Source: an uncultured Chitinophagales bacterium
GTDB lineage: Bacteria > Bacteroidota > Rhodothermia > Balneolales > HLUCCA01
Length of the DNA: 64,000 nucleotides
Assembly (NCBI GenBank): GCA_964509715.1
Contig: CAZDYD010000003.1
Span: forward strand, 1,436 to 65,435
Reading direction: 5' to 3'
Under the pieces are notes generated by a model, which ran no database searches, was not told the DNA's origin, and saw nothing but the letters and a program-made list of their open reading frames with translations. Below, piece after piece: positions 21,340-59,510 of this stretch. The translations under genes were made by a program, and so were the position numbers. Position 1 is the stretch's first letter; every line of letters starts with the position of its first letter.

Positions 21340-22305
21340 TTGAAAAATTTTGCTCTGATTGGTGCAGCCGGATTCATTGCTCCCCGGCATATGAAAGCGA
21401 TTAAGGATACGGGTAACAGAATCGTGGCGGCATTAGATCCCTTCGATAGTGTAGGGGTAGTAGACAGTTATTTTCCTGAGGCAGATTTTTTTACCGAGTT
21501 TGAACGATTTGATCGGCATATCGATAAGTTGAGACGAAGTGGCGAACAGATCGATTATGTGTCTGTCTGCTCACCGAACTATTTACATGATGCACACATT
21601 CGTTTTGGACTGCGTTCTCAAGCAGATGTGATCTGTGAAAAACCGCTCGTGTTAAATCCGTGGAATGTGGATGCGCTCAAACAAATTGAGACTGAAAGTG
21701 GAAAGAATATTTTTACCATTCTTCAGTTGAGGTTGCACCCTTCGATCATTGAACTCAAGAAACGAGTTGATGAAGACAAAAGCGGAAAGATGTATGATAT
21801 AGATCTAACGTATATCACATCACGTGGCCACTGGTACTATACCAGTTGGAAAGGCGACGTGAATAAGTCCGGTGGCATTGCTACAAACATTGGCGTCCAT
21901 TTTTTCGATGCTTTGATGTGGATATTTGGAGGACTTAAAAAGAACGTGGTTCATATTCTTGAACATGACAGGGCTTCCGGATTTATGCAACTTGAAAAAG
22001 CCAATGTGCGATGGTTTTTAAGTATAAATGCCGACACCTTGCCTGAAGAAGCCAAATCTACCGGAAAACGAACCTACAGATTGATCAGCATCAACGGTGA
22101 CAGTTTTGAATTCAGTGAAGGATTTACAGATCTTCACACCGATAGTTACCGGCACATTCTGGATGGACATGGATTTGGAATTGAAGAAGCAGGTGCATCT
22201 ATAAGTGTTGTACATGAAATTCGAACGGCACCGATACTTGGACTGACTGGTGATTATCACCCCTATGCCAAATTACCGTTGGCTCGACATCCCTTTGATT
22301 ATTGA
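21340..22305 (+). CDS. Gfo/Idh/MocA oxidoreductase (WbpB-like UDP-GlcNAcA 3-dehydrogenase type)
   Basis: N-terminal FALIGAAGFIAPRHMKAI Rossmann fold, EKP motif (VICEKPLVL) and 321 aa. Adjacent to the WbpE/WbpD-like genes. TTG start preceded by AAGGAGAG. Confidence 0.8.
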   Translation: MKNFALIGAAGFIAPRHMKAIKDTGNRIVAALDPFDSVGVVDSYFPEADFFTEFERFDRHIDKLRRSGEQIDYVSVCSPNYLHDAHIRFGLRSQADVICEKPLVLNPWNVDALKQIETESGKNIFTILQLRLHPSIIELKKRVDEDKSGKMYDIDLTYITSRGHWYYTSWKGDVNKSGGIATNIGVHFFDALMWIFGGLKKNVVHILEHDRASGFMQLEKANVRWFLSINADTLPEEAKSTGKRTYRLISINGDSFEFSEGFTDLHTDSYRHILDGHGFGIEEAGASISVVHEIRTAPILGLTGDYHPYAKLPLARHPFDY

Positions 22306-22310
22306 AATAT

Positions 22311-23162
22311 ATGCGTGACTTAAAAGTTACTGTTTACTCTCCCAAGTCATCTTTGACAAACCCGGTCAAGATGGCGCGTGCATTACTTGTTGATTTATTC
22401 GGTAGTCGTGAACTGGCATGGCGCCTTGCGGTACGTGACATTAGTGCCCAATATCGTCAGGCGGCATTAGGTATACTATGGGCATTTATACTTCCTCTGG
22501 TCAACACATTTACCTGGGTATTTCTTAGCGAATCCGGTATCGTATCGCTATCTGAGACCGATATTCCTTATCCGGTGTATGTGTTCGTTGGGACTATGCT
22601 TTGGCAAATACTTGTTGATGCCATAAACGCCCCACTCAATGAGACTACGGCTGCAAAAGCAATGCTGGCAAAACTGAACTTCCCCAGGGAAGCCATCATT
22701 ATGTCGGGTATCTACAAAACCTTGTTCAACGCACTTATAAAGGTTTTGTTGGTGATCATTGCCATCTCATTCTTTGGGATTTATCCGGGTTGGACCCTCC
22801 TTTGGTTACCCGTTGCATTGTTTTCACTGATTTTGGTGGGTACGTCGATTGGCTTACTGATAACACCTGTTGGTATTCTATATACAGATATTGGTAAAGC
22901 CATCCCATTGTTCATGCAGTTTTTAATGTATGTCACTCCCGTTGTGTTTGCCATGCCACAAAGTGGGCTAGCTGCAACCATTTTCAAATTGAACCCCTTT
23001 TCATATCTCATTTTGACATCAAGGAGCTGGATAACCAGTACACCGGTCGAGTTTCTGGATGGATTTATCATAGTAAACATATTGTTTTTCATACTCATGC
23101 TCATTGTTATGGTAATTTACAGATTGGCTATGCCCATTCTGATTGAGCGTATGAGTGCATGA
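22311..23162 (+). CDS. wzm: ABC-2 type polysaccharide/O-antigen exporter permease (Wzm/KpsM-like)
   Basis: About 6 TM segments and the ABC-2 N-terminus (ELAWRLAVRDISAQYRQAALGILWAFILPL). Directly upstream of the Wzt-like ATPase. Confidence 0.85.
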   Translation: MRDLKVTVYSPKSSLTNPVKMARALLVDLFGSRELAWRLAVRDISAQYRQAALGILWAFILPLVNTFTWVFLSESGIVSLSETDIPYPVYVFVGTMLWQILVDAINAPLNETTAAKAMLAKLNFPREAIIMSGIYKTLFNALIKVLLVIIAISFFGIYPGWTLLWLPVALFSLILVGTSIGLLITPVGILYTDIGKAIPLFMQFLMYVTPVVFAMPQSGLAATIFKLNPFSYLILTSRSWITSTPVEFLDGFIIVNILFFILMLIVMVIYRLAMPILIERMSA

Positions 23163-23186
23163 TTTTTATAAATAACAACTAACTGC

Positions 23187-24428
23187 ATGTCAAACGAAGT
23201 ACTGATCCGTGTAAACAATGTCTCCAAAAAATTCAGTAAGGATCTGAAGCGATCTTTATGGTATGGGATGAAAGACATTGGAAAAGAAGTGCTGGGGATG
23301 TCGGAACACAAACGAGATCGTCTGCGCCCCACTGAATTCTGGGCGGTAAAAGATGTGTCATTCGAACTGAAGAGAGGTGAGTGTCTCGGTTTGATTGGTC
23401 GAAATGGAGCAGGTAAGACCACTCTACTCAAAATGCTCAATGGTCTGGTCAAACCAGATCAGGGGAATATTGAAATGCGTGGACAAGTAGGCGCCTTGAT
23501 ATCATTGGGTACTGGATTTGACCCGATTCTCACCGGACGTGAGAATATCTATGTGAATGCCTCCATCTTGGGAATTAAAAAAGCAGAAATCGATGAAAAG
23601 GTAAATGAAATCATAGAATTTGCAGAATTGGGGGATTTCATCGAAGCACCGGTAAGAAGCTATAGTTCAGGGATGGTCAGCAGGCTTGGTTTTTCGATTG
23701 CTGTTCATATGAAGCCCGACATACTCATTTTGGATGAAGTTCTTGCCGTTGGTGATGCCGGATTCAAGATGAAATCTCTGAATAAAATGTACGAGATCAT
23801 GAATGAAACAGCCGTGATTTTTGTGAACCACAATATGGCCACTTTGTCACGTGTGTGTAACAAGATTTTGTACCTGAAAGATGGTCAAACACAATATTTC
23901 GGTGATAATGTATTGCACGGTATCGAAAGATATCTGGCACAATTTGAAGATGAGCAAGGATTCATAGATTACAATGGAAAAGCTCAATTTAATGAAATTG
24001 TTGTAGCGTCGAATGTGGACCGTGGCTTTGATATTAAAGAACGACCGATCTTGAATCATGGTGATGACCTGCTCATTGACTTTGATTATCAATTAGACCC
24101 TGCTTGTGGTCCTCATGAGTTGAGTGTAGTAATCTCAAATAAAGATTTTCTTACCCTCGCTTTCCACAAAACAGATCCAATCGAGAACACACCAGATGGT
24201 CACAACATGGTTAAACTCAGGATCCCCAAGCTTGAACTTACGAATGGTGAGTACAGCATTACATTCAAGATTCTGAGCTCAACTACCGATGGTACCTTGC
24301 CCGAAAATTATGCAACGTACAGACACTGGAAGAAATTCAAAGTTGAGGGACTTGGAACGTTGAATAGTGTTCCGTTTATGATCAGTGGTGAAATGCAGAT
24401 CATGTCGACCAACGGTACAAAACCATAA
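23187..24428 (+). CDS. wzt: Polysaccharide ABC exporter ATP-binding protein (Wzt-like) with ~170-aa C-terminal extension
   Basis: Walker A GRNGAGKTTLLK, signature YSSGMVSRLGFS and Walker B ILILDEVLAVGD. Residues ~245-413 form an extra, beta-strand-rich domain, as in Wzt proteins that bind the capped glycan terminus. Confidence 0.9.
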   Translation: MSNEVLIRVNNVSKKFSKDLKRSLWYGMKDIGKEVLGMSEHKRDRLRPTEFWAVKDVSFELKRGECLGLIGRNGAGKTTLLKMLNGLVKPDQGNIEMRGQVGALISLGTGFDPILTGRENIYVNASILGIKKAEIDEKVNEIIEFAELGDFIEAPVRSYSSGMVSRLGFSIAVHMKPDILILDEVLAVGDAGFKMKSLNKMYEIMNETAVIFVNHNMATLSRVCNKILYLKDGQTQYFGDNVLHGIERYLAQFEDEQGFIDYNGKAQFNEIVVASNVDRGFDIKERPILNHGDDLLIDFDYQLDPACGPHELSVVISNKDFLTLAFHKTDPIENTPDGHNMVKLRIPKLELTNGEYSITFKILSSTTDGTLPENYATYRHWKKFKVEGLGTLNSVPFMISGEMQIMSTNGTKP

Positions 24429-24452: not shown

Positions 24453-25466
24453 ATGAACTTGAACGGCAAATCAATACTTATAACGGGTGGAACAGGATCC
24501 CTTGGACGTGCTTTTATAAAAAAAGTACTTACAACCTGGCCGGATGTCGAAAGACTGGTCATCTTTTCCAGAGATGAACAAAAACAATTTGAAATGGCAC
24601 AGGAGTATCCGCACACACGATATCCAATGATCCGTTTTTTTATCGGAGATGTGCGTGATTATGCCAGATTGGTACGAGCTTTGAGTGGTATTGATTATGT
24701 GATCCATGCTGCTGCCATGAAACATGTGCCGATAGCCGAGTACAATCCTGATGAGTGTGTCAAAACGAATATCAATGGAGCCGAGAACCTGATCCGTGCT
24801 TGTCTTGAGACGAATGTGGAGAAAGTAGTTGCACTCTCAACCGACAAAGCTGCAGCACCAATCAATTTGTATGGCGCTACAAAATTAGTATCCGACAAAC
24901 TCTTCATTGCAGCTAATAACATTAAAGGTGATCGAAAAATTACGTTTTCAGTTGTTCGGTATGGAAATGTGATGGGATCGAATGGATCAGTGATACCATT
25001 CTTTCTAAAAAAACGCAAGGAAGGTGTCCTGCCTATCACTCATCCAGAAATGACACGTTTCAACATTACACTTGAAGGTGGAGTTAACATGGTGCTTCAT
25101 GCTCTTGAAACGGCTTGGGGTGGCGAACTATTTGTACCCAAACTTCCTTCATACAGAATATTGGACGTTGCCGAAGCTATTGGCCCTGAATGCGATAAAC
25201 CGGTCATAGGTATTCGTCCAGGAGAAAAAATTCATGAGGAGATGATCACAACATCAGATTCATTCTATACATATGATTTGGGTAGCTATTATGCCATCCT
25301 GCCATCGGTTCATAAATGGAAGATTGAAGATTTTGTAGATCATTTTAAAGCGGTAAAAGTGCCACGCGGATTTCAGTACAATTCTGGTGAAAATACAGAT
25401 TGGGTTAGCGTTGATGAGTTAAGAAAATTAGTAAAAGAACATGTTGACCCCTATTTTACAGTGTAG
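24453..25466 (+). CDS. pseB: UDP-N-acetylglucosamine 4,6-dehydratase (inverting), PseB/FlaA1
   Basis: Nearly collinear with my memory of H. pylori FlaA1: KSILITGGTGSLG, FFIGDVRD, IHAAAMKHVPIAEYNP, STDKAAAPINLYGATK, FSVVRYGNVMGS, IGIRPGEKIHE. Confidence 0.93.
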   Translation: MNLNGKSILITGGTGSLGRAFIKKVLTTWPDVERLVIFSRDEQKQFEMAQEYPHTRYPMIRFFIGDVRDYARLVRALSGIDYVIHAAAMKHVPIAEYNPDECVKTNINGAENLIRACLETNVEKVVALSTDKAAAPINLYGATKLVSDKLFIAANNIKGDRKITFSVVRYGNVMGSNGSVIPFFLKKRKEGVLPITHPEMTRFNITLEGGVNMVLHALETAWGGELFVPKLPSYRILDVAEAIGPECDKPVIGIRPGEKIHEEMITTSDSFYTYDLGSYYAILPSVHKWKIEDFVDHFKAVKVPRGFQYNSGENTDWVSVDELRKLVKEHVDPYFTV

Positions 25467-25513
25467 ATATGTATTCGATGTCCTAAAACCAATCATTGCC
25501 ACTGATCGATTCG

Positions 25514-26530
25514 ATGCCCCCGTTAAAGTATTCGAGAGATAATGTATTATTCATTCAGGGTCCAGAAAAAACTGGTACATCGTCCCTGAATGGGATGCTT
25601 AATGCACACCCACAGATTATGAATCTGTTTGAAGTGTACATGGCTCAATCGTCAATAACTAAGTATGGTCACCAGTTATTGGACAAATATCCATCAGGAA
25701 GGATGTACTTTCGTGAGGATGATGATTACGGAGCGCCATATATAGATTTTTTCAACCACTTTTCGACTTTGGAACCAGATTTCAGTTACACATTCATTGG
25801 TACCAAGATCAATAGTATGGTAGCCGGACTCACAACCAGGAAGTATCCATATAAAACTATTTATACAATTCGTGATGTACGATCCTGGGCTATAAAGCAA
25901 AGCGTGATCAAACATTATCGTACCGAATTGGATATTGTGATTCCAATCATGGCGTATCTGCGGTTTGTTGTAGAAAGTTATAAATACCCCGACATCCTAA
26001 AAATTTGGATGGAAGATATGGTTTTGAACAATAATCATACGTTTGACCGAATCGGAGATTATCTCGAATTGGATTTCAGCAGCTACAAATCTGGATGGTG
26101 GGAAATGTTTGGCGCACATAGCGAGACGGATCCCAAAAGTACCTTTCGATTGTCACACATCCACCATTCTTCCCAGATCAAACCAGAGCGTTTAGATACA
26201 TCCTACAAACTTGCGGACCACCCGTTCTGGAATGAAGTGAGTGAAATATTTGATAAATATTATCTGAAAAATGACGAGGGTGCACTTTCAGATGCGATTA
26301 TGGCCCAAGATCTTCAGAGGATTGAACGGCTTCATACATATGCCCCGCTAACAATCGAAGATGCATATATTGGAATCAAAACCGAACGGTTTGGTGACCT
26401 CAAGTCCGAAAAAATCGAGTTCGATAAGTCCAACACGATACTTCCAGAAAATGAATCCCTGATGGCCAGAATCATTCGAAGATTACATCGGATCAATCAG
26501 GCGGCCAGAGGTAAAACCATACTTGATTGA
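25514..26530 (+). CDS. Putative PAPS-dependent sulfotransferase
   Basis: 5'-PSB-like loop PEKTGTSSL (nt 25562-25588) and a 3'-PB-like motif IRDVRSWAIKQS (nt 25871-25903) about 100 aa downstream, which is the canonical spacing. No other recognisable family motif. ATG at 25514 is preferred over TTG at 25496. Confidence 0.6.
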   Translation: MPPLKYSRDNVLFIQGPEKTGTSSLNGMLNAHPQIMNLFEVYMAQSSITKYGHQLLDKYPSGRMYFREDDDYGAPYIDFFNHFSTLEPDFSYTFIGTKINSMVAGLTTRKYPYKTIYTIRDVRSWAIKQSVIKHYRTELDIVIPIMAYLRFVVESYKYPDILKIWMEDMVLNNNHTFDRIGDYLELDFSSYKSGWWEMFGAHSETDPKSTFRLSHIHHSSQIKPERLDTSYKLADHPFWNEVSEIFDKYYLKNDEGALSDAIMAQDLQRIERLHTYAPLTIEDAYIGIKTERFGDLKSEKIEFDKSNTILPENESLMARIIRRLHRINQAARGKTILD

Positions 26531-26534
26531 TATC

Positions 26535-27818
26535 ATGGAAAATAAATCTGTAATTCCATATGGTAGGCAACACATCACCCAAAAAGATCTGGATGCCGTA
26601 GTTCGGGTACTACAATCAGATTATCTCACGCAAGGGCCTGAAATAGCTACATTTGAACAGGCATTTGCGAGTTATGTGGGATCTCGTTTCGCAGTTGCAG
26701 TTTCTAACGGCACGGCTGCACTTCACCTGTGTGCCTTGGCGCTTGACGTTAAAAGTGGAGATAAAGTACTCACAACACCTATCACGTTTGCGGCATCAGG
26801 TAACTGTATCAGATATTGCGGAGGTGAATTAGATTTCGTTGATATTGAACCGGATACGTATCTGATCGATATAGCTTCATTACGAAAAAAGCTCGAGTCT
26901 GTCCCAAAAGGGACATATCGCGGTGTCGTCCCGGTAGATTTTGCCGGACGTGCAGTTAACCTGGAGGAAGTCAGGAAGCTTGCCGATGAATTCGGACTTT
27001 GGATCATCGAAGATGCCTGCCATGCACCCGGTGGATTCTTCATCGACTCCAAAGAGAATAAACAGTTATGTGGAAATGGGGTTTTTGCTGATCTGGCCAT
27101 TTTCTCTTTCCATCCGGTTAAACATATTGCTGCAGGTGAAGGCGGTATGATTACTACCAATAATGAAGCATTATACGAGCGATTGTTAAGACTCCGAACG
27201 CATGGTATTACCAAAAATGTGAATGATTTTACGTTGGATGTCAATTTTGCGGCCGGACATGATGCCGAGCACATGGAGCTTCAAAAATCGGCACCATCTA
27301 TTGGTGCTCCTCATGCGCATGAAACTGAGCTTGCCAATAAAAATTCAATCAACGCATATCCGGGTTGGTACATGGAGATGCAGGAACTGGGTTATAATTA
27401 TCGTCTGACCGACTTTCAGGCTGCATTGGGGCATTCTCAACTTGAGGAGGCTGATGACAGACTGTCGCGCCGCCGACAAATAGCCGAACGATATGCCCAA
27501 GCATTTTATGGCAAACCATTCATTTTAGGTCAATCAGATCACATTGAAGGGCATGCTTATCATCTTTACATTATTGAAACGCCCCGTCGACTCGAACTGT
27601 ACAATTACCTGAGGACCAAAGGGATCTATGCGCAGGTACACTACATTCCATTACACTTAATGCCATACTATCGGCAATTTGGGTGGAAATCAGGTGATAT
27701 GCCATCATCAGAATCATATTACCGTAAATGCCTGAGCCTTCCTATGTATCCGACGTTGAGTGATGATCAGCAGCATTTTGTAATCAAAACCATTGAGGAG
27801 TTCTTTGAACAAGATTAG
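26535..27818 (+). CDS. pseC: UDP-4-amino-4,6-dideoxy-N-acetyl-beta-L-altrosamine transaminase, PseC (with ~40-aa insertion)
   Basis: The PseC-type N-terminus IPYGRQHITQKDLDAVVRVLQSDYLTQGP plus the DegT-family core (SFHPVKHIAAGEGG). Extra segment DVNFAAGHDAEHMELQKSAPSIGAPHAHETELANKNS. Confidence 0.9.
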   Translation: MENKSVIPYGRQHITQKDLDAVVRVLQSDYLTQGPEIATFEQAFASYVGSRFAVAVSNGTAALHLCALALDVKSGDKVLTTPITFAASGNCIRYCGGELDFVDIEPDTYLIDIASLRKKLESVPKGTYRGVVPVDFAGRAVNLEEVRKLADEFGLWIIEDACHAPGGFFIDSKENKQLCGNGVFADLAIFSFHPVKHIAAGEGGMITTNNEALYERLLRLRTHGITKNVNDFTLDVNFAAGHDAEHMELQKSAPSIGAPHAHETELANKNSINAYPGWYMEMQELGYNYRLTDFQAALGHSQLEEADDRLSRRRQIAERYAQAFYGKPFILGQSDHIEGHAYHLYIIETPRRLELYNYLRTKGIYAQVHYIPLHLMPYYRQFGWKSGDMPSSESYYRKCLSLPMYPTLSDDQQHFVIKTIEEFFEQD

Positions 27819-28635
27819 TCGAATCGGACTTGGAACCGTGCAATTTGGTCTCCCGTACGGAATTTCTAATAAACTCGGACAACCAGATAAGAAATCTGTT
27901 GCTGAGGTGCTGGAACTGGCAAAGACATCCGGCATCAAAATGATTGATACCGCCAGTGCCTATGGTACCGCTGAGTTGGTGTTGGGATCAATTGGAGTGC
28001 AGGATTTTCATGTGGTGTCAAAATATATGCCACCTGAAAGCTACATGTCGATAGACGAACAAGTACATCAGTCTCTTGAACGTCTTCAATGTGATCATTT
28101 ATACGGATACCTTGCACATCGACCTCAGAACATAGTCAAGCGACCGGAGCAATGGGAAGCTTTACAACTCCTGAAACAAGAAGGGTTTGTTGGGAAGATC
28201 GGGTTCAGTCTGAATGAACCTGCCGAGCTGGATGCGTTACTCGAACTCGGTATGATTCCGGACTTAATTCAGGTCCCGGTAAACTACTTTGACCGAAGAT
28301 TTGTGAGTTATTTCGATGAATTGAAGTCCATAGGCACTGAAATCCATGGTAGATCTGCATTTCTTCAGGGATTATTTTTTCTGAAAGAATTTGAATCCCG
28401 TTTTGATCCGGTTCGTGATGTGATTCGGAACCTCCAGTCCTCTATAAGCAATCTTCCCGCTGCTTTATTGAATTATGTACTTTCAGATACCCGAATCGAT
28501 ACGGTGCTGATAGGTGTGCAGAACGTTACCCAGCTTCGGGACATCATTGTCGGATTAGATGAATCTGAGTCTTTACCCGAACTTAATATGGATATCAGCG
28601 ATGAGATTGTGATGCCCTCAAAATGGAGTCATTAA
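27793..28635 (+). CDS. Aldo/keto reductase family oxidoreductase
   Basis: RIGLGTVQFGLPYGISN start and (beta/alpha)8 AKR layout (IDTASAYGTAE...). The TTG start (27793 or 27805) overlaps the pseC stop. Confidence 0.8.
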   Translation: MRSSLNKISRIGLGTVQFGLPYGISNKLGQPDKKSVAEVLELAKTSGIKMIDTASAYGTAELVLGSIGVQDFHVVSKYMPPESYMSIDEQVHQSLERLQCDHLYGYLAHRPQNIVKRPEQWEALQLLKQEGFVGKIGFSLNEPAELDALLELGMIPDLIQVPVNYFDRRFVSYFDELKSIGTEIHGRSAFLQGLFFLKEFESRFDPVRDVIRNLQSSISNLPAALLNYVLSDTRIDTVLIGVQNVTQLRDIIVGLDESESLPELNMDISDEIVMPSKWSH

Positions 28636-37037: not shown

Positions 37038-38492
37038 ATGAACATTTATATCCCAATTGAAGTCAAGATTCGAGAGTTGGAAGGACGTACACTCTTGGCA
37101 CTTGCTGCGGCTGAGCGTGGACATCAGGTCATTTTGGGGAGTAAGATGGACGCACTGATACCAGCAGTGGATGGTCATTTACCGGCAGGGGTGATCCATA
37201 TGAAATCCCTCACTCCTTCGGATCAAATGCTTGATCAACTCACCAAACTAAAATCCAACGGTCATTTGGTTACATCCCAGGATGAAGAAAGTGGACTTCT
37301 GGATGAGTCGTATGAAAAATTTGCTCGAATCAGGTATAGCGAATTATCCATAAATAAAGCAGATGCTGTGTTTGGCTGGGGCGAATTTGATACGGCTTCA
37401 CTGAAACAGGTATATCCTGATTTTGCTGAAAAGATGATTGCAACTGGATCACCGCGTGTAGATTTTTGGCGAAAGGATTTTCAAAATTATTTTCATCTCG
37501 ATAGTAAGCTACAGAAGTGGCAGGACAAACCATATCTGATGGTGGTATCAAATTTTGGGTCGGTCATTCGATCCAATAAAATCTGGAATGTGATGGCACG
37601 ACTCAGAGAAGCGGGATATTTTGACAGGGACCCGGAAATGGAGCTATTCGAGTATGAATATTCCGGTTACATGCTCCAGTTGATCGGACATTTCGTGAAA
37701 ATGATCAGGCAGTTGGCTGAAACGTATCCGGATGTAAATATATTGATTCGTCCACATCCGGTTGAAGCTGATGAAGCATGGGATAAAATGATTGGTCCTT
37801 ACCCAAATGTGCATGTATTCCGTGAAGGTACCATCAGTGCATGGATTCGTGGAGCTACAGCCATCATCCATAATGGGTGTACTAGCGCACTGGAAGCCGC
37901 CGTTTCAGGTGTGCCTCGCATTGCCTATCGTCCACTCCCTTCACATTTTGAACGTGAAATCCCAAATCAGCTCAGTAGGGAAGCATTCACCATGGATGAG
38001 TTGCTCGAGAAAGTTGATCACCTGCTTCAGAACCAATCAAGTAAGGCCGAATTAAATCAGGATAAACTGGCTGAGGAAAAACTGGCCAAACGACTTGTAA
38101 ATGTTGATGGAGTTTTGGCCGCTGACCGTATTGTAGATGCCTGGGAAATACTGGCTCGGAACAACAAACTGGATACGGCTAAACAAGTTGGGGATGTGGT
38201 GGTTCATCACGGTGTTGGATCCGGCACACCCTTAACAACCAACAACTCGTTGGTCGTTAAGTTCAAACGCAAGGTGAAAGCACTCCTGCAAGGGGACGAA
38301 AACGGAACGAATGGTACTCCAATTCGGGATGATGGGCAGTTGCTCGACAATTCATTCAAGTTCAAGTCATACACGGATGATGAGTTCCGTGAAATTCTTG
38401 AGAACCTTCAGTCATCTATTGATCGTTTTCATCACATTGAATATCGAAGAATCAGTGATCGTGCTTTCCTGATTACATCCAAAAAAAATTAA
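37038..38492 (+). CDS. Uncharacterised GT-B-like 'surface carbohydrate biosynthesis' protein with HP motif (candidate CMP-nonulosonate transferase)
   Basis: The N-terminus IYIPIEVKIRELEGRTLLALAAAERGHQVILG resembles proteins I recall as annotated 'surface carbohydrate biosynthesis protein' next to Pse/Leg genes. RPHP motif at nt 37749-37760, followed by IIHNGCTSALEAAVSGVP (a GT-B C-terminal Rossmann half). The function is inferred. Confidence 0.45.
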   Translation: MNIYIPIEVKIRELEGRTLLALAAAERGHQVILGSKMDALIPAVDGHLPAGVIHMKSLTPSDQMLDQLTKLKSNGHLVTSQDEESGLLDESYEKFARIRYSELSINKADAVFGWGEFDTASLKQVYPDFAEKMIATGSPRVDFWRKDFQNYFHLDSKLQKWQDKPYLMVVSNFGSVIRSNKIWNVMARLREAGYFDRDPEMELFEYEYSGYMLQLIGHFVKMIRQLAETYPDVNILIRPHPVEADEAWDKMIGPYPNVHVFREGTISAWIRGATAIIHNGCTSALEAAVSGVPRIAYRPLPSHFEREIPNQLSREAFTMDELLEKVDHLLQNQSSKAELNQDKLAEEKLAKRLVNVDGVLAADRIVDAWEILARNNKLDTAKQVGDVVVHHGVGSGTPLTTNNSLVVKFKRKVKALLQGDENGTNGTPIRDDGQLLDNSFKFKSYTDDEFREILENLQSSIDRFHHIEYRRISDRAFLITSKKN

Positions 38493-39775
38493 TGAGTCAG
38501 ACAATCAATAAAATCGGGTTCTATGTCGTAGACAAACGACATTATGATTATTTCGGTAATGTATGGACAGAATTACAAAAGCGTGGTATACCTTTTGAGC
38601 TGATCATCAACGACCAGTTATCTGAGGTCAAACAAAGTGTGAAGGATGAGTACGACCTCGAGATGGTTTCGATAGCGAAACACAAGGGTCATTCATGGAT
38701 CACACTGACCGATGTGCTAAAGAAGGGATGTAAATACAAAGTGTTTGTGACTACGTTCACATTCAAGTTCGGGGTGAGATCGCCTGAGACTACGCTGATC
38801 GAAAACGTGGTGAGAAGAGGCTATCGGGCAATCCAAAAAATACTTCGATTATTTCGATCTAACCTCTTCAGTGAATCGCTTGAATCATGGTATCGACAGT
38901 ATGAACTCGATAAACTTCAACTTCCAGAAGTTCTGGCCGGGCAAATAGTGGTGCAGTTCCCAAAAGGAATGGACATCCATCTGGCAAAGTTTCCTGATCC
39001 ACAGACCAAAGACATCATCGATTTGTATCTGTGTCATGGTGATTTTGACAGTAATCTGGTTCAGACCAGGACTAAAAAGCCGTGCGCTGTTATCGGGTAT
39101 CCGCGTTATGACAATCTGGTCGACCCTGAACTTAAATTGGCAAAAAATATTAGAACCGAGTTTGGAATCCCATCTGATAAGCCTATTGTGGCGTGGTTGC
39201 CGACGTATGTCCCACGACAGGGCAATGATGATTTTAACATCGACAGCTGGGCTCCATTTGTTGCTGAGCTCACTAAGAATTTTGCTGTGATCGTAAGGCC
39301 ACATCCGAAACGGGTTGAACGTGACAGAGAAATATTGAATGATAAGTTATCATCCTTTGGATTCTATGTCGATCTTGTTGCAGAAAGAGATATGAGTGAG
39401 TTATATGCTGGTGCTGCATTTACACTTTGTGATTACGGAGGGGTAGTGTTCAGTTCTGTTTATACGGATCAAAATCTGATTTTACTTAATCACCCAGAAC
39501 ATGACAGCGAACATCAACGCAAAGAGAACCTAATTGTTTATCAAATCCGTGATCAGTTGCTCAATGTAGGTTTTGAACAGGCGAATCAAGAGCCTGATAT
39601 TTTAATCAAGCTGACTCAGAACAAAGAAATTTGGGATCAACAGTCGCGAATTCGTGACAAAGTACGTGAACAATTCTTTGGTGGTGTAGAAGCAGGAAGA
39701 GGTTCTGAACTTGCCGCTGAGATTTTGGACAATGTATTAAGTGAGGGTCGGTCTTCGAACATATTCAAACAATAA
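38492..39775 (+). CDS. Uncharacterised GT-B-like protein with HP motif (TagF/CDP-glycerol glycerophosphotransferase-like or CMP-sugar transferase-like)
   Basis: RPHP at nt 39296-39307 followed by LCDYGGVVFSSVY, which resembles the TagF-family KPHP...DYSS pattern. The start overlaps the upstream stop (ATGA). Confidence 0.45.
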   Translation: MSQTINKIGFYVVDKRHYDYFGNVWTELQKRGIPFELIINDQLSEVKQSVKDEYDLEMVSIAKHKGHSWITLTDVLKKGCKYKVFVTTFTFKFGVRSPETTLIENVVRRGYRAIQKILRLFRSNLFSESLESWYRQYELDKLQLPEVLAGQIVVQFPKGMDIHLAKFPDPQTKDIIDLYLCHGDFDSNLVQTRTKKPCAVIGYPRYDNLVDPELKLAKNIRTEFGIPSDKPIVAWLPTYVPRQGNDDFNIDSWAPFVAELTKNFAVIVRPHPKRVERDREILNDKLSSFGFYVDLVAERDMSELYAGAAFTLCDYGGVVFSSVYTDQNLILLNHPEHDSEHQRKENLIVYQIRDQLLNVGFEQANQEPDILIKLTQNKEIWDQQSRIRDKVREQFFGGVEAGRGSELAAEILDNVLSEGRSSNIFKQ

Positions 39776-39776
39776 A

Positions 39777-40889
39777 ATGAAACCGTCGTACATGCTTCGT
39801 AAACTTGGGAACGAGTTGTTGGATTGGATGTTGCTGCGATTCAACATCTTTTCAGAGGTCGTCGATCCAGCTGATTTTTTGTCGGAAGATGTGATTCGAA
39901 TAATGGAGTCGAACGGATACTTTGTTCGTCCAGCTCCAAACAGGAGAAAAATCAAGTGCCTACTTTATAATAAGCGCATCATACGGCCGGACTTATCACG
40001 GAAGAAACCCAAGATGTTTATTCCAGATTGGGATCATGCCGGAATCAAGAAGAAACACGAGTTAATGCAAAAAGCGATCAGTATCTCTTATTTCTATATG
40101 GATCCGGATGCAATACCTTGGAATCTTGCTGTGTACAGAGATAAAGAGAGCAAAAAAGTATCCTTCTTTGATTTTGATGGCAGAACCAAAACAGTGTTCT
40201 GGTCGAGAAAAGATCATTTTGAGCGGGAAGCCAATGCAACTTCCCATTTTATTGATCACGGTGTAGATGTTCTGGGACATATTCGTGAAGACCGTGACAA
40301 GCACATGCTGGTCCAAGAGCTTGTTGGAATACCAGGGGAACATATTGTCGATTTCAATCCGGTCGATGATCAGATGATGGATTACGTCCTTCGTTCAGCG
40401 GAGATGAAAACTATTATGCTCCAGAAGCCCGTGAACCTTCCGATCGAGATTCAGGAGCTTGCCGACTTTGCAGAACAACAGATTAAACGAAATTTCTGGG
40501 TACATAACAACAAAGCTCCATATGGAATAGTCCACGGCGATCTGAATCCGATGAATCTCATACGAGATCAGGGTAAAACCTGGCTAATTGATTTCGACCG
40601 GACCTTTGAAGCATCTGTGTATTACGATTTTATTTATGTCTGGCTGAATAAATATGACAGGAGTACAGATAAGCTCAAGACGCGAATACGTATGATCAAT
40701 GATCGTTTTTATGGTGAGAATATTATGACCGATAGTGTGGCATTAAATCTGGCTCTGGCACTTTTTGTGTATGATAATATTCGATTTATTGAGCAGCATT
40801 GTGACACGGTGAAAGATGCACGATTTGTGATTTTTTTATTGAACCGATTGAGAGATAAGTGGCCGAGGACACCGGTAACACAAGAATGA
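39777..40889 (+). CDS. APH/choline-kinase-fold phosphotransferase (kinase-like)
   Basis: Catalytic loop and metal site IVHGDLNPMNLIRDQGKTWLIDFDRTF (nt 40533-40598) matches the HxDxxxxN...DFD Brenner-type motif. The ATG at 39777 lies 1 nt after the upstream stop. Confidence 0.7.
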   Translation: MKPSYMLRKLGNELLDWMLLRFNIFSEVVDPADFLSEDVIRIMESNGYFVRPAPNRRKIKCLLYNKRIIRPDLSRKKPKMFIPDWDHAGIKKKHELMQKAISISYFYMDPDAIPWNLAVYRDKESKKVSFFDFDGRTKTVFWSRKDHFEREANATSHFIDHGVDVLGHIREDRDKHMLVQELVGIPGEHIVDFNPVDDQMMDYVLRSAEMKTIMLQKPVNLPIEIQELADFAEQQIKRNFWVHNNKAPYGIVHGDLNPMNLIRDQGKTWLIDFDRTFEASVYYDFIYVWLNKYDRSTDKLKTRIRMINDRFYGENIMTDSVALNLALALFVYDNIRFIEQHCDTVKDARFVIFLLNRLRDKWPRTPVTQE

Positions 40890-43663: not shown

Positions 43664-43768
43664 AAACAAATCTGAGTTGAATCCGTTGAATGGGATAACA
43701 TTCAACCCATGTAAAAACTACATTGAAGAGAATAGAGTTTTGAAAAGCGTTTCACATTCATAGTGCCG

Positions 43769-45175
43769 ATGGAATCCAGTTCATCTCATATAGACACCGC
43801 CGTAAACAGTAATTCCGCTCAAACCAGTTGGAAAACCGGTAAAGATATAGATCTGGCCCGACAAACATTTGCGTGGTTGTCGGACACACATGTGCCAACT
43901 GTGTTTTTTAAAGTCGGATTCATTCTAATTTTATTGGAGTTGTTGTTCGAGACGGCGTACCACTCGCTTGCATTTACTCCATTTACGACCCGTAGGTTTA
44001 TCGGTGTCCATTTATGGCCATCACAAATGTGGTTTCTGTTTTTGGGTACGGCAATCGCCGTAGTCAATTTGGCTAAAAACAGATTTACTTTAAATCGACG
44101 GATTTTCATGAATGCCATGCCGATGTTTGTCGTACTTGGAGTCTACACGATTTGGACGTTTTATGGTATTGCAAGAGGAAATGCAGCGGCTATTGATTTG
44201 TTCAGGGAGATGGTATTTGCTGGACTAAGTCTACCCGCTGTCGTGTACCTGGCTCAATTTGTAAAGGTCCGGGACCTTTTCGACAATTTCATCAAATGGT
44301 GCCTGATTATCTATCCGTTGGCCGGCCTCAATGCCTTTATCTTCCGAATTATCCCATTTGGTCCATCAATTCAGCTGGGTTTCCTAATGCTCAGCTGTTT
44401 TGTTTACTCATACTTCTTGTTCAAGGCTATCAAAAATTCGTGGTACCTTGTTCCGGCTTTGATCATGCTTATCCCATCCTTGTTGTTGTTCAGTAAACCG
44501 ATCATCGCTTTGATGTTTGCATTACCTCCTGCTATTGCGATCATAAGCACCTTGATTACTCGAAAACAGCTGAAATACAGTATAAGTCGCCGAAGTCTCA
44601 AATTGCTATTGATTACTGTCATCCTACTTGTAATATCGCTAGTAGGGGTGTGGTACCTCAATATTCTACTCGATGGACGTATCGAATTTTTGATCAGGAT
44701 GAACTTCCTAAAAGAGAGGATCGATGAATCTGGTAGTGTATATTCAGGTGATCTGTCTGGAGGAAGGATGATCATTTGGGGGAATGCACTAAAAATCTGG
44801 CAGGAAAATTGGATTTTTGGAGCTGGAATGGGCACTGCAGTACGTATCAGGAACGAAACTCTTGCACAAATCCATAATTATCCGCTTCAGGCGCTCATGG
44901 ATACCGGTCTGCTGGGTTTCTCATTGCTTTTGGTGTCTTGGTGGACCTGGTATAAGCGTGTGTTCAGAACACTATCGACCTATCAGTGGGACAAAGAGAA
45001 AACGATATATGCCAGTTTATTGGCTTATATTGTCGCTTTTTTCATTTACGGATTGTATGGACTGCCAATGATTTATCTGGGGGCAGCTCATTTTTTCTGG
45101 ATATGTGTTGCACTGCTGACCGTTTTCTCAACCCGCAGTGACTCAGAACCTGACAACAAAGAATTGACTGAATAG
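43769..45175 (+). CDS. O-antigen ligase/polymerase family membrane protein (Wzy_C domain; WaaL- or Wzy-like)
   Basis: At least 10 TM segments and a periplasmic-loop motif RNETLAQIHNYPLQALMDTGLLGFSLLL typical of the Wzy_C/O-antigen ligase family. Confidence 0.8.
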   Translation: MESSSSHIDTAVNSNSAQTSWKTGKDIDLARQTFAWLSDTHVPTVFFKVGFILILLELLFETAYHSLAFTPFTTRRFIGVHLWPSQMWFLFLGTAIAVVNLAKNRFTLNRRIFMNAMPMFVVLGVYTIWTFYGIARGNAAAIDLFREMVFAGLSLPAVVYLAQFVKVRDLFDNFIKWCLIIYPLAGLNAFIFRIIPFGPSIQLGFLMLSCFVYSYFLFKAIKNSWYLVPALIMLIPSLLLFSKPIIALMFALPPAIAIISTLITRKQLKYSISRRSLKLLLITVILLVISLVGVWYLNILLDGRIEFLIRMNFLKERIDESGSVYSGDLSGGRMIIWGNALKIWQENWIFGAGMGTAVRIRNETLAQIHNYPLQALMDTGLLGFSLLLVSWWTWYKRVFRTLSTYQWDKEKTIYASLLAYIVAFFIYGLYGLPMIYLGAAHFFWICVALLTVFSTRSDSEPDNKELTE

Positions 45176-54196: not shown

Positions 54197-54275
54197 TTCC
54201 GACATCCATAATAATGTTTGGTTTTATTCCAAATCCAATTGTCTGTCTTTCCTTTCAAAAAACTGTTGAATGTAA

Positions 54276-57511: not shown

Positions 57512-57607
57512 TGTTGATCATTATTTCGGAGTTCAGGTTATGATATCATCCAGTTTAGATCGTTGGATTTAATTATGCATTCGGATAAAAACGGTTAGGT
57601 CACATAT

Positions 57608-59425: not shown

Positions 59426-59510
59426 CTGGGGGATTGAACGCATCGTTTGTACTAACTCTGCGTTGATCAACTAAAAACCTCAAGTAAATGGTGAACACCA
59501 AAACGTCATC

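What the first reader, a model, noticed from the sequence alone, without database searches (positions are those of the whole stretch)
37038..40889. Three-gene module of uncharacterised proteins: two tandem 'RPHP'-motif GT-B proteins plus an APH-fold kinase
Both the 484-aa and 427-aa products have a Rossmann-like C-terminal half carrying R-P-H-P (nt 37749-37760 and 39296-39307). An HP motif is a known hallmark of GT-B enzymes that use CMP- or CDP-activated donors, such as bacterial sialyltransferases, beta-Kdo transferases and TagF-type glycerophosphotransferases. They lie directly downstream of the CMP-nonulosonate genes, so they are the best candidates for the otherwise missing Pse transferases, or for phosphodiester-forming transferases. 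The third gene encodes a protein-kinase-like/aminoglycoside-phosphotransferase fold (HGDLNPMN...IDFD) with no obvious substrate. None of the three can be assigned a specific reaction from sequence.
Basis: partly seen in the sequence, partly recalled or inferred. Interest (0 to 1): 0.65.

Follow-up and report, generated by a model that had tools for sequence, protein, structure and literature searches.

The report
Pseudaminic-acid glycan finishing gene trio
Three tightly packed genes after a pseudaminic-acid sugar pathway encode a likely pseudaminic-acid transferase, a teichoic-acid-type phosphotransferase and a rare orphan kinase found only in such sugar loci; the reactions of the last two are still unknown.

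Summary
Three co-directional, abutting genes (37038-38492, 38492-39775, 39777-40889) follow the Pse genes. RPHP sits at the stated coordinates, is invariant in both families, and occurs nowhere else in the six-frame translation of the window.

ORF1 belongs to NCBIfam TIGR04396. It is a remote homologue of the Tannerella forsythia Pse/Leg transferase family (BFO_1060). It has a confident GT-B model and invariant sialyltransferase-type D-E-E-x-G and H-P motifs. In every locus examined except one transposase-flanked locus (L008) it lies in or beside nonulosonate genes. It is the best candidate for the CMP-Pse transferase.

ORF2 is a TagF-family protein by Pfam PF04464. Its RPHP histidine aligns with TagF H584. 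No CDP-glycerol or CDP-ribitol genes are present, and its more distant relatives sit inside MeOPN-like CDP-amidate operons. It is more likely a phosphotransferase than a second Pse transferase.

ORF3 is an intact APH-fold small-molecule kinase from a very small orphan family (41 clusters at E<=1e-10 among 1.84 billion). The family occurs in nonulosonate loci and, wherever enough flank was available, beside TIGR04396 genes.

The locus uses a Wzm/Wzt exporter with a Wzt_C-like domain, so the trio may build a terminal cap. Exact reactions remain inferred.

The parts
37038..38492 (+). ORF1, 484 aa. Soluble GT-B protein of NCBIfam TIGR04396 and candidate CMP-Pse-dependent pseudaminyltransferase. 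Carries a C-terminal alpha/beta extension (aa ~447-481).
   Evidence: TIGR04396 at 274.6 bits (cut-off 125) and NF046086 BFO_1060 at 83.4 bits (below cut-off 200). AF2 pLDDT 88.5. GT-B Foldseek matches. No TM segment.
37281..37295 (+). D82-E83-E84-S85-G86, a sialyltransferase-type 'D/E-D/E-G' motif. It follows an N-domain beta-strand (E77-81).
   Evidence: D82, E83, E84 and G86 are invariant in 64 homologues. Secondary structure. Motif definition as cited in PMC5420450 and PMC7439481.
37749..37760 (+). R238-P239-H240-P241 ('HP' motif) of ORF1, beginning at the last residue of beta-strand E234-238.
   Evidence: Coordinates. Invariant. Aligned with the ORF2 RPHP by hhalign. Secondary structure.
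38492..39775 (+). ORF2, 427 aa. Soluble TagF/TagB-family (Glyphos_transf) protein with a divergent N-terminal domain. Candidate phosphotransferase that uses a donor with a CMP leaving group.
   Evidence: PF04464 at 51.8 bits (cut-off 22.1), covering profile positions 159-349 only. TagF 3l7i and Cps3D 8qoy matches. Only 21 homologues in the word-index search. Only 3 loci among 185,579 species genomes.
39095..39112 (+). G202-Y-P-R-Y-D207 of ORF2. This is the TagF-family 'GYPRxD' motif.
   Evidence: Invariant. Aligns with GYPRND of TagF and GYPRID of Cps3D.
39296..39307 (+). R269-P270-H271-P272 of ORF2. H271 aligns with TagF H584.
39777..40889 (+). ORF3, 370 aa from the ATG at 39777 (365 aa from 39792 in public gene calls). 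APH-fold ATP-dependent kinase of a very small orphan family.
   Evidence: PF01636 at 33.4 bits (cut-off 23.2). AF2 pLDDT 87.4. Foldseek matches macrolide, aminoglycoside, choline and homoserine kinases. Family size.
40533..40598 (+). Catalytic loop H-G-D-L-N-P-M-N and metal-binding I-D-F-D of ORF3.
   Evidence: H253, G254, D255, N260, I271, D272 and D274 (numbering from the ATG at 39777) are invariant in 14 homologues. Coordinates.
24453..36856 (+). Upstream context: the modified-Pse biosynthesis block. In order: PseB, a sulfotransferase-like gene, PseC, an aldo-keto reductase, an SDR, a CTP_transf_3 cytidylyltransferase, a PseG-like gene, a carbamoyltransferase, PseI, a PIG-L deacetylase and a second carbamoyltransferase.
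22302..24428 (+). Context: ABC-2-type permease (about 6 TM segments) and Wzt-like ATPase with a C-terminal Wzt_C-like domain. This is the probable exporter of the glycan.
   Evidence: Wzt_C at 17.9 bits in the window. The 70%-identical orthologue in L024 passes Pfam GA at 31.4 bits.

Best explanation
The three genes form an operon-like finishing module for a surface glycan that contains pseudaminic acid and is assembled in the cytoplasm.

Shown: all three proteins are soluble. They sit in a polysaccharide locus with a Wzm/Wzt-type ABC exporter, a Wzy_C-family protein that I read as a ligase or O-oligosaccharyltransferase, several GT2/GT4 enzymes, and a pathway for a modified Pse.

Inferred roles:
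1. ORF1 (TIGR04396) binds CMP-Pse in its C-terminal Rossmann domain through the R-P-H-P loop. It uses the invariant D82-E83-E84 acidic cluster of the N-domain as base and transfers Pse to the glycan. This matches the motif arrangement of GT38/GT52/GT80 sialyltransferases and the role of the homologous Tannerella forsythia Pse/Leg transferase.
2. ORF2 is a TagF-type enzyme whose H271 plays the role of TagF H584. It most likely attacks the phosphorus of a CDP-activated donor, releases CMP and installs a phosphodiester-linked substituent. The donor is not CDP-glycerol made in this locus and remains unidentified.
3. ORF3 is an active ATP-dependent kinase that works with the TIGR04396 enzyme. It most likely phosphorylates the nonulosonate, or the residue that carries it, in the way KdkA phosphorylates Kdo after WaaA.

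The combined product would be a phosphorylated or phosphodiester-decorated Pse terminus. That terminus could be the cap read by the Wzt_C domain of the exporter.
For: ORF1:
- TIGR04396 at 274.6 bits (cut-off 125), and a near-full-length match to the BFO_1060 glycosyltransferase model at E 1.7e-23.
- Deleting BFO_1060-family genes (Tanf_01245, TFUB4_00887) removes the Pse/Leg residue from T. forsythia O-glycans (PMC5420450).
- D82, E83, E84, G86 and R238-P-H-P241 are invariant in 64 homologues.
- The AF2 model is a GT-B fold with pLDDT 88.5.
- TIGR04396 genes lie in or beside NulO genes in L005, L007, L009, L010, L011, L013, L022 (Azospirillum Leg cluster), L023 and L024.
- No other CMP-type transferase family is present in the window.

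ORF2:
- PF04464 above threshold.
- H271 aligns with TagF H584, and GYPRYD with GYPRND. There is also a Cps3D match.
- R269, H271, P272, D314, G316 and G317 are invariant.
- Relatives at 30-39% identity are embedded in operons that hold homologues of all four MeOPN donor genes (sizes as in PMC7901785). This points to phosphoryl transfer from a CDP-X donor.

ORF3:
- PF01636 above threshold, invariant catalytic residues and an APH small-molecule-kinase fold.
- The family has only 41 clusters at E<=1e-10.
- Relatives at about 30% identity sit beside NeuB and CTP_transf_3 genes (L013, L018, L020, L023). In L013, L014 and L023 they also lie beside or within 7 kb of TIGR04396 genes, in gene orders different from the window.

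Module and export:
- The trio is conserved as a unit down to 35% (ORF2) and 42% (ORF1) identity.
- The genes overlap or abut.
- There is a Wzm/Wzt exporter with a Wzt_C-like domain, and no Wzx was seen.
Against: - No member of TIGR04396, of the ORF2 clade or of the ORF3 family has been assayed.
- ORF1 scores below the BFO_1060 cut-off (83 vs 200 bits). It has no sequence match to any solved structure. Its top Foldseek matches are UDP-GlcNAc 2-epimerases, not sialyltransferases or TagF.
- B. subtilis SpsB also has a TagB domain and DEG and HP motifs and lies next to CMP-Leg genes, yet it is not needed for Leg transfer (PMC7439481). Motifs plus neighbourhood can therefore mislead.
- For ORF2, no CDP-donor pathway is present in the window; the only nucleotidyltransferase is the CTP_transf_3 gene at 29433. 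CMP-Pse cannot be excluded as its donor.
- The TagF H444 equivalent is not identifiable in ORF2. The Pfam match covers only the C-terminal half of the model.
- For ORF3, the KdkA resemblance is weak (25 bits vs cut-off 142) and the substrate is pure inference.
- The loci that carry the whole trio are orthologous clusters, so the ORF2-ORF3 adjacency may reflect only one evolutionary event.
- The cap hypothesis rests only on the presence of Wzt_C and on analogy.
Confidence: 0.42

Rival explanations
1. Both RPHP proteins are CMP-Pse-dependent transferases. ORF1 and ORF2 would add two Pse residues, or add Pse to two different acceptors or linkages. The kinase would separately phosphorylate the glycan.
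For: - Both proteins carry an invariant HP loop at homologous positions.
- CMP-Pse is the only cytidine-linked donor for which the window encodes a pathway.
- The Tannerella NulO transferases were themselves annotated as TagB-like (PMC5420450).
Against: - ORF2 does not match TIGR04396 or BFO_1060 at all, but it passes the TagF Pfam threshold.
- It lacks the D/E-D/E-G motif.
- Its relatives sit in CDP-amidate-type operons, in L012 with no TIGR04396 gene within 10 kb and in L017 with none on the short contig.
- The TagB-like SpsB next to Leg genes is dispensable for Leg transfer (PMC7439481).
Confidence: 0.2
2. ORF3 and ORF2 form a 'kinase, then CDP-activation, then TagF-type transfer' route, like LicA/LicC/LicD or Gtp3/Gtp2. 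ORF3 would phosphorylate a small alcohol such as a polyol, glycerate or an amino alcohol. A cytidylyltransferase encoded elsewhere, or the CTP_transf_3 enzyme, would make CDP-X. ORF2 would then transfer X-phosphate to the glycan.
For: - ORF2 and ORF3 abut or overlap in every trio locus.
- The nearest folds to ORF3 include choline kinase LicA and homoserine kinase.
- More distant kinase relatives lie immediately next to CTP_transf_3 genes (L018 and L020).
Against: - No second nucleotidyltransferase is present in the window or in L005, L010 or L024.
- The AKR, SDR and CTP_transf_3 genes persist in L007, which lacks both ORF2 and ORF3, so they belong to the Pse pathway.
- The kinase family occurs without any TagF-like gene in L013, L014 and L023.
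Confidence: 0.15
3. ORF1 is not a transferase. It would be a GT-B-fold nucleotide-sugar hydrolase or epimerase, or another tailoring enzyme of the nonulosonate pathway (NeuC- or PseG-like). The true Pse transferase would be ORF2 or one of the GT4 enzymes.
For: - The top Foldseek matches are UDP-GlcNAc 2-epimerases (E about 1e-10).
- The gene is often embedded among biosynthetic genes, for example between a methyltransferase and NeuB in L022.
- The PseG-like gene in the window is slightly below its cut-off (144 vs 153.6 bits).
Against: - There is no Epimerase_2 or PseG HMM hit, and TM-scores are only 0.47-0.60.
- Sequence-level homology is to a family whose deletion removes the NulO from the glycan while the CMP-activated NulO derivatives were detected in the cellular nucleotide-sugar pool (PMC5420450).
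- Loci with TIGR04396 already have PseG or NeuC.
Confidence: 0.08

Closest known systems
Tannerella forsythia Pse/Leg-derivative transferases Tanf_01245 / TFUB4_00887 (NCBIfam NF046086, BFO_1060 family; PMC5420450)
   Same: ORF1 matches the family model over nearly its whole length (E 1.7e-23). Both have a GT-B/TagB-like fold and HP and D/E-D/E-G motifs. Both genes sit immediately downstream of the CMP-NulO genes in an FCB-group bacterium.
   Different: The score is below the family cut-off (83 vs 200 bits). ORF1 belongs to the separate family TIGR04396 and has a C-terminal extension of about 100 aa. No genetic or biochemical data exist for TIGR04396. The Tannerella glycan is an O-linked protein glycan, whereas this one is exported by a Wzm/Wzt system.
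Bacterial GT-B sialyltransferases (GT38 polyST, GT52 Lst/NST, GT80 PmST1)
   Same: An acidic D/E-D/E-G motif in the N-terminal half and an HP motif in the C-terminal Rossmann domain, about 160 residues apart (from my knowledge of those families). The donor is a CMP-linked 2-ulosonic acid.
   Different: ORF1 shows no HMM or sequence membership in these families, and none of them appears in the top 50 structural matches.
TagF/TagB/TarF CDP-glycerol glycerophosphotransferases and TagF-like capsule polymerases (PF04464; PDB 3l7i, 8qoy)
   Same: ORF2 passes the Pfam threshold. It shares the GYPRxD motif, the R-x-H motif (H584 equivalent) and a D-Y-x-x motif. ORF1 is a more distant relative (hhalign 91%; weak PF04464 hits in 12 of 64 members).
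   Different: The ORF2 N-terminal domain does not align with the family model, and no H444 equivalent was identified. No TagD or TarI/J genes are present. The organism belongs to the diderm FCB group. The ORF2 clade is very rare (21 clusters; 3 of 185,579 species genomes).
Campylobacter jejuni MeOPN system (mpnA-D = Cj1418-1415, plus transferases Cj1421/1422)
   Same: ORF2-clade genes in L011, L012 and L017 are embedded among homologues of the pathway. L011 and L012 hold all four: a PRK05849-type 768-791-aa kinase, an APS-kinase-like protein, a GATase whose best hit is gamma-glutamyl-CDP-amidate hydrolase, and an NTP_transferase. In L017 only the kinase and the NTP_transferase were annotated. 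The donor there is a CDP-linked phosphoryl compound.
   Different: The window itself has none of these four genes. Whether Cj1421/1422 are TagF-like could not be checked here.
KdkA (Kdo kinase) acting after WaaA, and the WbdD kinase domain acting as an O-antigen chain terminator with Wzt_C recognition
   Same: In both cases a kinase of the protein-kinase-like superfamily is paired with an ulosonic-acid transferase or with an ABC-exported glycan. The best NCBIfam hit of ORF3 is the Kdo kinase model. The exporter carries a Wzt_C-like domain.
   Different: The scores are far below the cut-offs (25 vs 142 bits; PF06293 14.5 vs 21.3 bits). ORF3 has no methyltransferase or coiled-coil as WbdD has. 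This is a functional analogy only.
KpsS1 (GT118), the retaining Pse5Ac7Ac transferase of Acinetobacter baumannii (cited in PMC12887879)
   Same: It catalyses the same proposed reaction class: CMP-Pse to a polysaccharide acceptor.
   Different: It is unrelated in sequence. Neither ORF1 nor ORF2 shows a Capsule_synth or KpsS-like hit.

Membership tests
NCBIfam TIGR04396 'surface carbohydrate biosynthesis protein' (ORF1) | HMM score above the curated cut-off | tested here: met
   274.6 bits against a cut-off of 125, covering residues 3-382.
NCBIfam TIGR04396 (ORF1) | Location in or next to nonulosonic-acid biosynthesis genes | tested here: met
   True for the window and for L005, L007, L009, L010, L011, L013, L022, L023 and L024. 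The exception is L008, where the gene is flanked by transposases.
BFO_1060 / Tanf_01245 NulO transferase family NF046086 (ORF1) | HMM score above the curated cut-off of 200 bits | tested here: not met
   83.4 bits, E 1.7e-23, profile positions 7-337 of 365. ORF1 is a homologue, not a member.
BFO_1060 / Tanf_01245 NulO transferase family (ORF1) | Loss of the terminal Pse/Leg residue when the gene is deleted | not testable with these tools
   This is a genetic result known only for T. forsythia (PMC5420450).
Bacterial GT-B sialyltransferases GT38/GT52/GT80 (ORF1) | Conserved D/E-D/E-G and HP motifs | tested here: met
   D82, E83, E84, G86 and H240, P241 are invariant in 64 sequences.
Bacterial GT-B sialyltransferases GT38/GT52/GT80 (ORF1) | Sequence or HMM membership, or closest structural match | tested here: not met
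   No Pfam sialyltransferase hit in ORF1. None among the 25 most frequent of 42 families matched by the 64 relatives. No PDB sequence hit. None in the Foldseek top 50.
TagF/TagB glycerophosphotransferase family PF04464 (ORF2) | Pfam gathering score | tested here: met
   51.8 bits against 22.1, but only profile positions 159-349 of 367 are matched.
TagF/TagB family (ORF2) | Histidine equivalent to TagF H584 in the donor-binding C-domain | tested here: met
   H271 aligns with H584 of 3l7i, and the 3l7m sequence has Ala there. H271 is invariant.
TagF/TagB family (ORF2) | N-domain catalytic histidine equivalent to TagF H444 (residue number from my recollection of Lovering et al. 2010) | tested here: inconclusive
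   The N-domain is not aligned by Pfam or PDB searches. The invariant H182 lies only 20 residues before GYPRYD, whereas the TagF histidine lies about 64 residues before GYPRND, so equivalence is not shown.
TagF/TagB family, specific CDP-glycerol/ribitol function (ORF2) | Co-located CDP-glycerol or CDP-ribitol synthesis genes (TagD, TarI/TarJ) | tested here: not met
   The only nucleotidyltransferase in the 64-kb window is the CTP_transf_3 gene at 29433.
APH phosphotransferase family PF01636 (ORF3) | Pfam gathering score plus an intact catalytic loop (HxDxxxxN) and metal-binding Asp | tested here: met
   33.4 bits against 23.2. H253, G254, D255, N260, D272 and D274 are invariant. APH-fold model and matches.
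Kdo kinase KdkA / LPS kinase family (ORF3) | HMM score above the cut-off | tested here: not met
   NF002475 at 25.3 bits against 142, and PF06293 at 14.5 bits against 21.3.
ABC-transporter-dependent glycan with a terminal cap (WbdD/WbbB-type systems; locus level) | Wzm/Wzt exporter whose Wzt carries a Wzt_C carbohydrate-binding domain | tested here: inconclusive
   The window Wzt scores 17.9 bits against GA 30.4. Its 70%-identical orthologue in L024 scores 31.4 bits. A 6-TM permease lies upstream. The existence of a cap was not tested.
GT118 KpsS1 / GT99 / GT107 ulosonic-acid transferases (ORF1, ORF2) | Sequence membership (Capsule_synth/KpsS-like HMM) | tested here: not met
   No such hit at E<=1.

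The most novel reading that the evidence does not exclude
ORF3 may found a nonulosonate-specific kinase family that makes a phosphorylated nonulosonate. The phosphate could go on the sugar. It could instead go on the ribose 3'-OH of CMP-Pse, as Cj1415 does for CDP-amidate in the MeOPN pathway. The TagF-like ORF2 would then use or extend this product. Together with the TIGR04396 transferase, the trio would build a phospho-Pse cap, a new kind of chain terminator read by the Wzt_C domain of an ABC exporter. To my knowledge neither phosphorylated bacterial nonulosonates nor a Pse-based terminator has been described.
Probability: 0.12. Interest if true: 0.75.

Novelty: new variant of a known kind. 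Interest (0 to 1): 0.5.

Why it matters
Enzymes that attach pseudaminic or legionaminic acid to glycans are scarce. The papers read here name only these: KpsS1 (GT118), the flagellin transferases Maf and FlmG, and the genetically defined Tannerella enzymes.

TIGR04396 lay in or beside nonulosonate loci of diverse bacteria in the loci examined here. It carries invariant sialyltransferase-type motifs, and the one full-text mention found for its product name was only a genome annotation. Showing that it is a Pse/Leg transferase would give a general annotation rule and new tools for chemoenzymatic synthesis.

The kinase family is almost unique to these loci. It could reveal an undescribed phosphorylation step in nonulosonate glycobiology.

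The side observation of MeOPN-like operons with a TagF-like gene in Balneolaceae suggests that phosphoramidate-type decorations exist outside Campylobacter, and it points to a candidate transferase class for them.

Tried and rejected
- **TagD/TarIJ or MeOPN-type donor pathway for ORF2.** I looked for one in the window and found none.
- **AKR + SDR + CTP_transf_3 genes (27793-30269) as a CDP-polyol pathway feeding ORF2.** Rejected, because the same three genes persist in L007, which lacks ORF2 and ORF3.
- **ORF2 H182 as the TagF H444 equivalent.** I recorded this first and then withdrew it. The spacing to GYPRxD does not fit, and no search aligns the N-domain.
- **P-loop 'dNK-like' ~260-aa and ~320-aa genes next to TIGR04396 in L007, L009 and L011 as analogous kinases.** They form recurrent paralogous families but have no family assignment, and could be sulfotransferase-like. 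Not pursued.
- **Sequence search of the ORF1 family against the PDB.** It gave only spurious CD4 hits.
- **Promoter and terminator scan of the module.** Nothing above the shuffled expectation.
- **Literature searches.** 'TIGR04396' returned nothing. 'Surface carbohydrate biosynthesis protein' returned one genome-annotation mention. The papers on Cj1421/1422 do not state their fold.
- **Metagenome and genome scans for ORF3 and ORF2 relatives.** They returned only 4 and 3 loci. This limits the statistics but documents how rare the families are.
- **Organism identity.** Homologue names and T9SS and UpxY-like genes point to a Balneolaceae/Bacteroidota-like bacterium.
- **Antibiotic-resistance kinase reading of ORF3.** Rejected on context.

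Full report
**Observation**

The window carries three co-directional ORFs at 37038-38492 (484 aa), 38492-39775 (427 aa) and 39741/39777-40889.
- RPHP at nt 37749-37760 in ORF1.
- RPHP at nt 39296-39307 in ORF2.
- HGDLNPMN at nt 40533-40556 and IDFD at nt 40587-40598 in ORF3.

RPHP occurs nowhere else in the six-frame translation of the 64-kb window. It appears in only about 0.1% of shuffles of either protein. The ORF1 stop and the ORF2 start overlap (TAATG), and the ORF3 ATG at 39777 lies 2 nt after the ORF2 stop. The GTG start at 39741 is probably an over-extension, because homologues and public gene calls start at or just after 39777. None of the three proteins has a predicted transmembrane segment.

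**Context**

The module sits in a large surface-glycan locus. In order it holds:
- a NusG/UpxY-like gene, a Wza-like exporter and a Wzz-like gene;
- sugar-modifying genes;
- a 6-TM ABC-2-type permease and a 413-aa Wzt-like ATPase;
- PseB, a sulfotransferase-like gene, PseC, an aldo-keto reductase, an SDR, a CTP_transf_3 cytidylyltransferase, a PseG-like gene, a carbamoyltransferase, PseI, a PIG-L deacetylase and a second carbamoyltransferase;
- the three-gene module;
- GT4 and GT2 enzymes, a Wzy_C protein and WbuY/WbuZ-like amidotransferase subunits;
- at the end, PAPS-synthesis genes.

No Wzx flippase, no TagD/TarIJ genes and no second nucleotidyltransferase were found. The Wzt C-terminus gives a sub-threshold Wzt_C hit of 17.9 bits. 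Its 70%-identical orthologue in L024 passes the Pfam threshold at 31.4 bits. The glycan is therefore probably assembled in the cytoplasm and exported by an ABC transporter of the kind that recognises a terminal cap. That last point comes from established knowledge of the E. coli O9a and Klebsiella O12 systems.

**ORF1**

ORF1 has no Pfam family. It is a clear member of NCBIfam TIGR04396, 'surface carbohydrate biosynthesis protein' (274.6 bits against a cut-off of 125). It also matches the BFO_1060 glycosyltransferase model over nearly its full length, but below the cut-off (83.4 bits against 200, E 1.7e-23). BFO_1060, Tanf_01245 and TFUB4_00887 are the T. forsythia proteins whose deletion removes the terminal Pse or Leg derivative from the O-glycan. 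That paper notes their D/E-D/E-G and HP motifs and their TagB-like domain (PMC5420450).

In an alignment of 64 ORF1 homologues at 41-80% identity, R238-P239-H240-P241 is invariant. AlphaFold2 gives a confident model (pLDDT 88.5, pTM 0.87) with two Rossmann domains plus a small C-terminal alpha/beta extension. The acidic motif follows an N-domain strand, and RPHP follows strand E234-238. Foldseek against the PDB returns GT-B proteins. UDP-GlcNAc 2-epimerases rank first, at E about 1e-10 and TM 0.47-0.60. This is generic GT-B similarity, and no sialyltransferase or TagF appears in the top 50. The family has no sequence-detectable solved relative. Its commonest weak Pfam hit is the TagF family, in 12 of 64 members.

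TIGR04396 genes lie in or next to nonulosonate genes in most loci examined:
- after PIG-L, carbamoyltransferase and PseI/NeuB in L005, L007 and L024, and after PIG-L and carbamoyltransferase in L009, where no NeuB lies within the fetched flank;
- directly after NeuB in L011 (the L011 protein scores 267 bits on TIGR04396);
- after the cytidylyltransferase in L013;
- inside a Leg cluster on an Azospirillum thermophilum plasmid (L022);
- at the end of a NeuB/NeuC cluster in L023.

In several of these loci it is the only candidate for a CMP-sugar-using GT-B. I therefore take ORF1 as the probable CMP-Pse transferase (about 0.6).

Two cautions apply. No TIGR04396 member has been assayed. And B. subtilis SpsB, which has a TagB domain and DEG and HP motifs and lies next to CMP-Leg genes, proved dispensable for Leg transfer (PMC7439481).

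**ORF2**

ORF2 passes the Pfam threshold for the TagF family (PF04464, 51.8 bits against 22.1), but only over profile positions 159-349. In the alignment with S. epidermidis TagF (3l7i), GYPRYD pairs with GYPRND and H271 of RPHP pairs with H584. The mutant entry 3l7m has Ala at that position. A profile of the ORF2 clade also matches the TagF-like capsule polymerase Cps3D (8qoy, E 1.7e-6).

Invariant residues in 21 homologues include G159, D161, C181, H182, D186, G202-D207, R269, H271, P272, D314, G316, G317 and S321. I first took H182 for the TagF N-domain catalytic histidine and then withdrew that. H182 lies 20 residues before GYPRYD, whereas the TagF histidine lies about 64 residues before GYPRND, and the N-domain is not aligned by any search. 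The nature of the base is therefore open.

ORF1 and ORF2 are not recent duplicates (BLASTP E 0.1). They are remote relatives: hhalign gives 91% probability (E 1e-6) and aligns GSPRVD with GYPRYD and RPHP with RPHP.

The clade is very rare. The word-index search of 5.8 billion clusters found 21 homologous clusters, and 185,579 species genomes yielded 3 loci.

Its more distant members (30-39% identity; L011/L016, L012, L017) are embedded in operons that look like the C. jejuni MeOPN donor pathway. L011 and L012 hold all four components:
- a 768-791-aa PPDK_N/PEP-utiliser protein; the L012 copy matches PRK05849 at 864 bits;
- an APS-kinase-like protein;
- a GATase; for the L012 copy the best hit is gamma-glutamyl-CDP-amidate hydrolase;
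- an NTP_transferase.

In L017 only the 754-aa PPDK_N/PEP-utiliser protein and the NTP_transferase were annotated. The sizes agree with mpnA-D (PMC7901785). That association favours phosphoryl transfer from a CDP-X donor as the chemistry of the clade. The window has no such donor genes, so CMP-Pse cannot be excluded as the ORF2 donor. I put phosphotransferase at about 0.55 and a second Pse transferase at about 0.2-0.25.

**ORF3**

ORF3 passes the Pfam APH threshold (33.4 bits against 23.2). It gives weaker hits to TCAD9, RIO1 and Kdo-kinase models. The catalytic loop (H253-G-D255-x4-N260) and I271-D272-F-D274 are invariant in 14 homologues, so the enzyme should be active. The AlphaFold2 model (pLDDT 87.4) matches small-molecule kinases best: macrolide and aminoglycoside phosphotransferases, amicoumacin kinase, homoserine kinase, choline kinase LicA and MTR kinase. 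The TM-scores are only 0.37-0.49.

An exhaustive profile search of 1.84 billion representative proteins found only 114 at E<=1e-3, 41 at E<=1e-10 and 16 at E<=1e-30. Ten of them were looked up, and all are metagenomic, named 'hypothetical protein' or left unnamed.

The contexts are informative:
- In the close clade the kinase follows the TagF-like gene directly (window, L005, L010, L015, L024).
- Relatives at about 30% identity lack any TagF-like gene but still sit in nonulosonate loci.
- L018 has the order NeuB-fusion, kinase, CTP_transf_3. L020 has kinase, CTP_transf_3, Asn-synthase.
- In L013 the kinase follows NeuB, with a TIGR04396 gene 6 kb downstream.
- In L014 and L023 the kinase is immediately followed by a TIGR04396 gene (A1 HMM at 245 and 228 bits).

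The recurrent partner of the kinase across different gene orders is therefore the TIGR04396 protein and the nonulosonate pathway, not the TagF-like protein. By analogy with KdkA acting after WaaA, I infer that it phosphorylates the nonulosonate or the residue bearing it (about 0.4). A role in making a phospho-precursor for a CDP donor is the main alternative.

**Module conservation**

The ORF1-ORF2-ORF3 trio recurs in L005/L006 (69%, 60% and 68% identity), L015 (a Chitinophagales MAG) and L024 (ORF2 at 35%, ORF1 at 42%). In L010, ORF1 is separated from the ORF2-ORF3 pair by two glycosyltransferase genes. These loci share neighbouring genes as well, so they are orthologous clusters and count as few independent events.

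**Synthesis**

The refinements are these:
- ORF1 is the Pse-transferase candidate. It has sialyltransferase-type motifs and a genetically characterised distant homologue.
- ORF2 is a true TagF-type enzyme of a rare clade whose relatives are tied to CDP-amidate-like donors.
- ORF3 belongs to an orphan kinase family that was found only in nonulosonate loci.
- The exporter type suggests, without proof, that the trio builds a terminal cap.

Each protein belongs to a known superfamily, so this is a new variant of a known kind rather than something categorically new. Interest is moderate: nonulosonate transferases are few, and a nonulosonate-linked kinase would be new biochemistry.

Noticed in passing
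L011 (SLKI01000094.1, Balneolaceae MAG) 6471-13839; L012 10001-16731; L017 3-8582: Homologues of the Campylobacter MeOPN (O-methyl phosphoramidate) donor pathway surround a TagF-like gene of the ORF2 clade in Balneolaceae MAGs (L011, L017) and a JGI metagenome contig (L012). L011 and L012 hold all four: a PRK05849-type 768-791-aa kinase, an APS-kinase-like protein, a GATase whose best hit is gamma-glutamyl-CDP-amidate hydrolase, and an NTP_transferase. In L017 only the kinase and the NTP_transferase were annotated. This suggests phosphoramidate-type glycan decoration outside Campylobacter, with a TagF-like enzyme as the candidate transferase.
   Followed up: partly
window 53393-62475 and 25496-26530: The glycan locus ends with a PAPS-supply set: a CysQ-like phosphatase (53393), a sulfate/citrate-type transporter (57608), CysD (59511) and a CysN/CysC fusion (60592). 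A sulfotransferase-like ORF sits between PseB and PseC. The polysaccharide is probably sulfated.
   Followed up: partly
window 24453-36856: The Pse pathway is atypical. No PseH acetyltransferase was found. The PseG-like gene scores just below its cut-off (144 vs 153.6 bits). The cytidylyltransferase does not match the PseF model. Two NodU/CmcH-type carbamoyltransferases and a PIG-L deacetylase are interleaved with the pathway genes. This suggests a de-N-acetylated, carbamoylated Pse derivative.
   Followed up: no
window 22302-24428; L024 15730-16977: The Wzm-like permease and the Wzt with a Wzt_C-like C-terminal domain are 70% identical between the window and L024. There is a Wzy_C protein (43763-45175) but no Wzx. 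This points to an ABC-transporter-dependent pathway in which Wzy_C probably acts as a ligase or O-oligosaccharyltransferase.
   Followed up: partly
L007 11461-13208; L009 12698-20255; L011 12030-13839; L012 15796-19757; L017 6797-8582: Two recurrent families with no firm Pfam or NCBIfam assignment accompany these loci: a ~260-aa family with faint dNK/adenylate-kinase-like P-loop hits, and a ~310-320-aa family with no hit, present in several paralogues per locus. They could be sulfotransferase-like enzymes.
   Followed up: partly
L013 8295-9995; L018 82-1773: In L018 the 563-aa NeuB-type synthase carries an N-terminal CTP_transf_3-like domain (weak Pfam hit), and a separate cytidylyltransferase gene is also present. 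The 566-aa NeuB of L013 is probably the same fusion. This leaves room for two cytidylyl-activation steps in those kinase-bearing loci.
   Followed up: no
window 5079-5783 and 13236-13751: A T9SS C-terminal sorting domain protein and a NusG/UpxY-like antiterminator lie at the head of the glycan locus. Together with the Balneolaceae, Cyclobacteriaceae and Chitinophagales names of homologues, they place the window in the FCB group. The exact organism could not be determined.
   Followed up: partly
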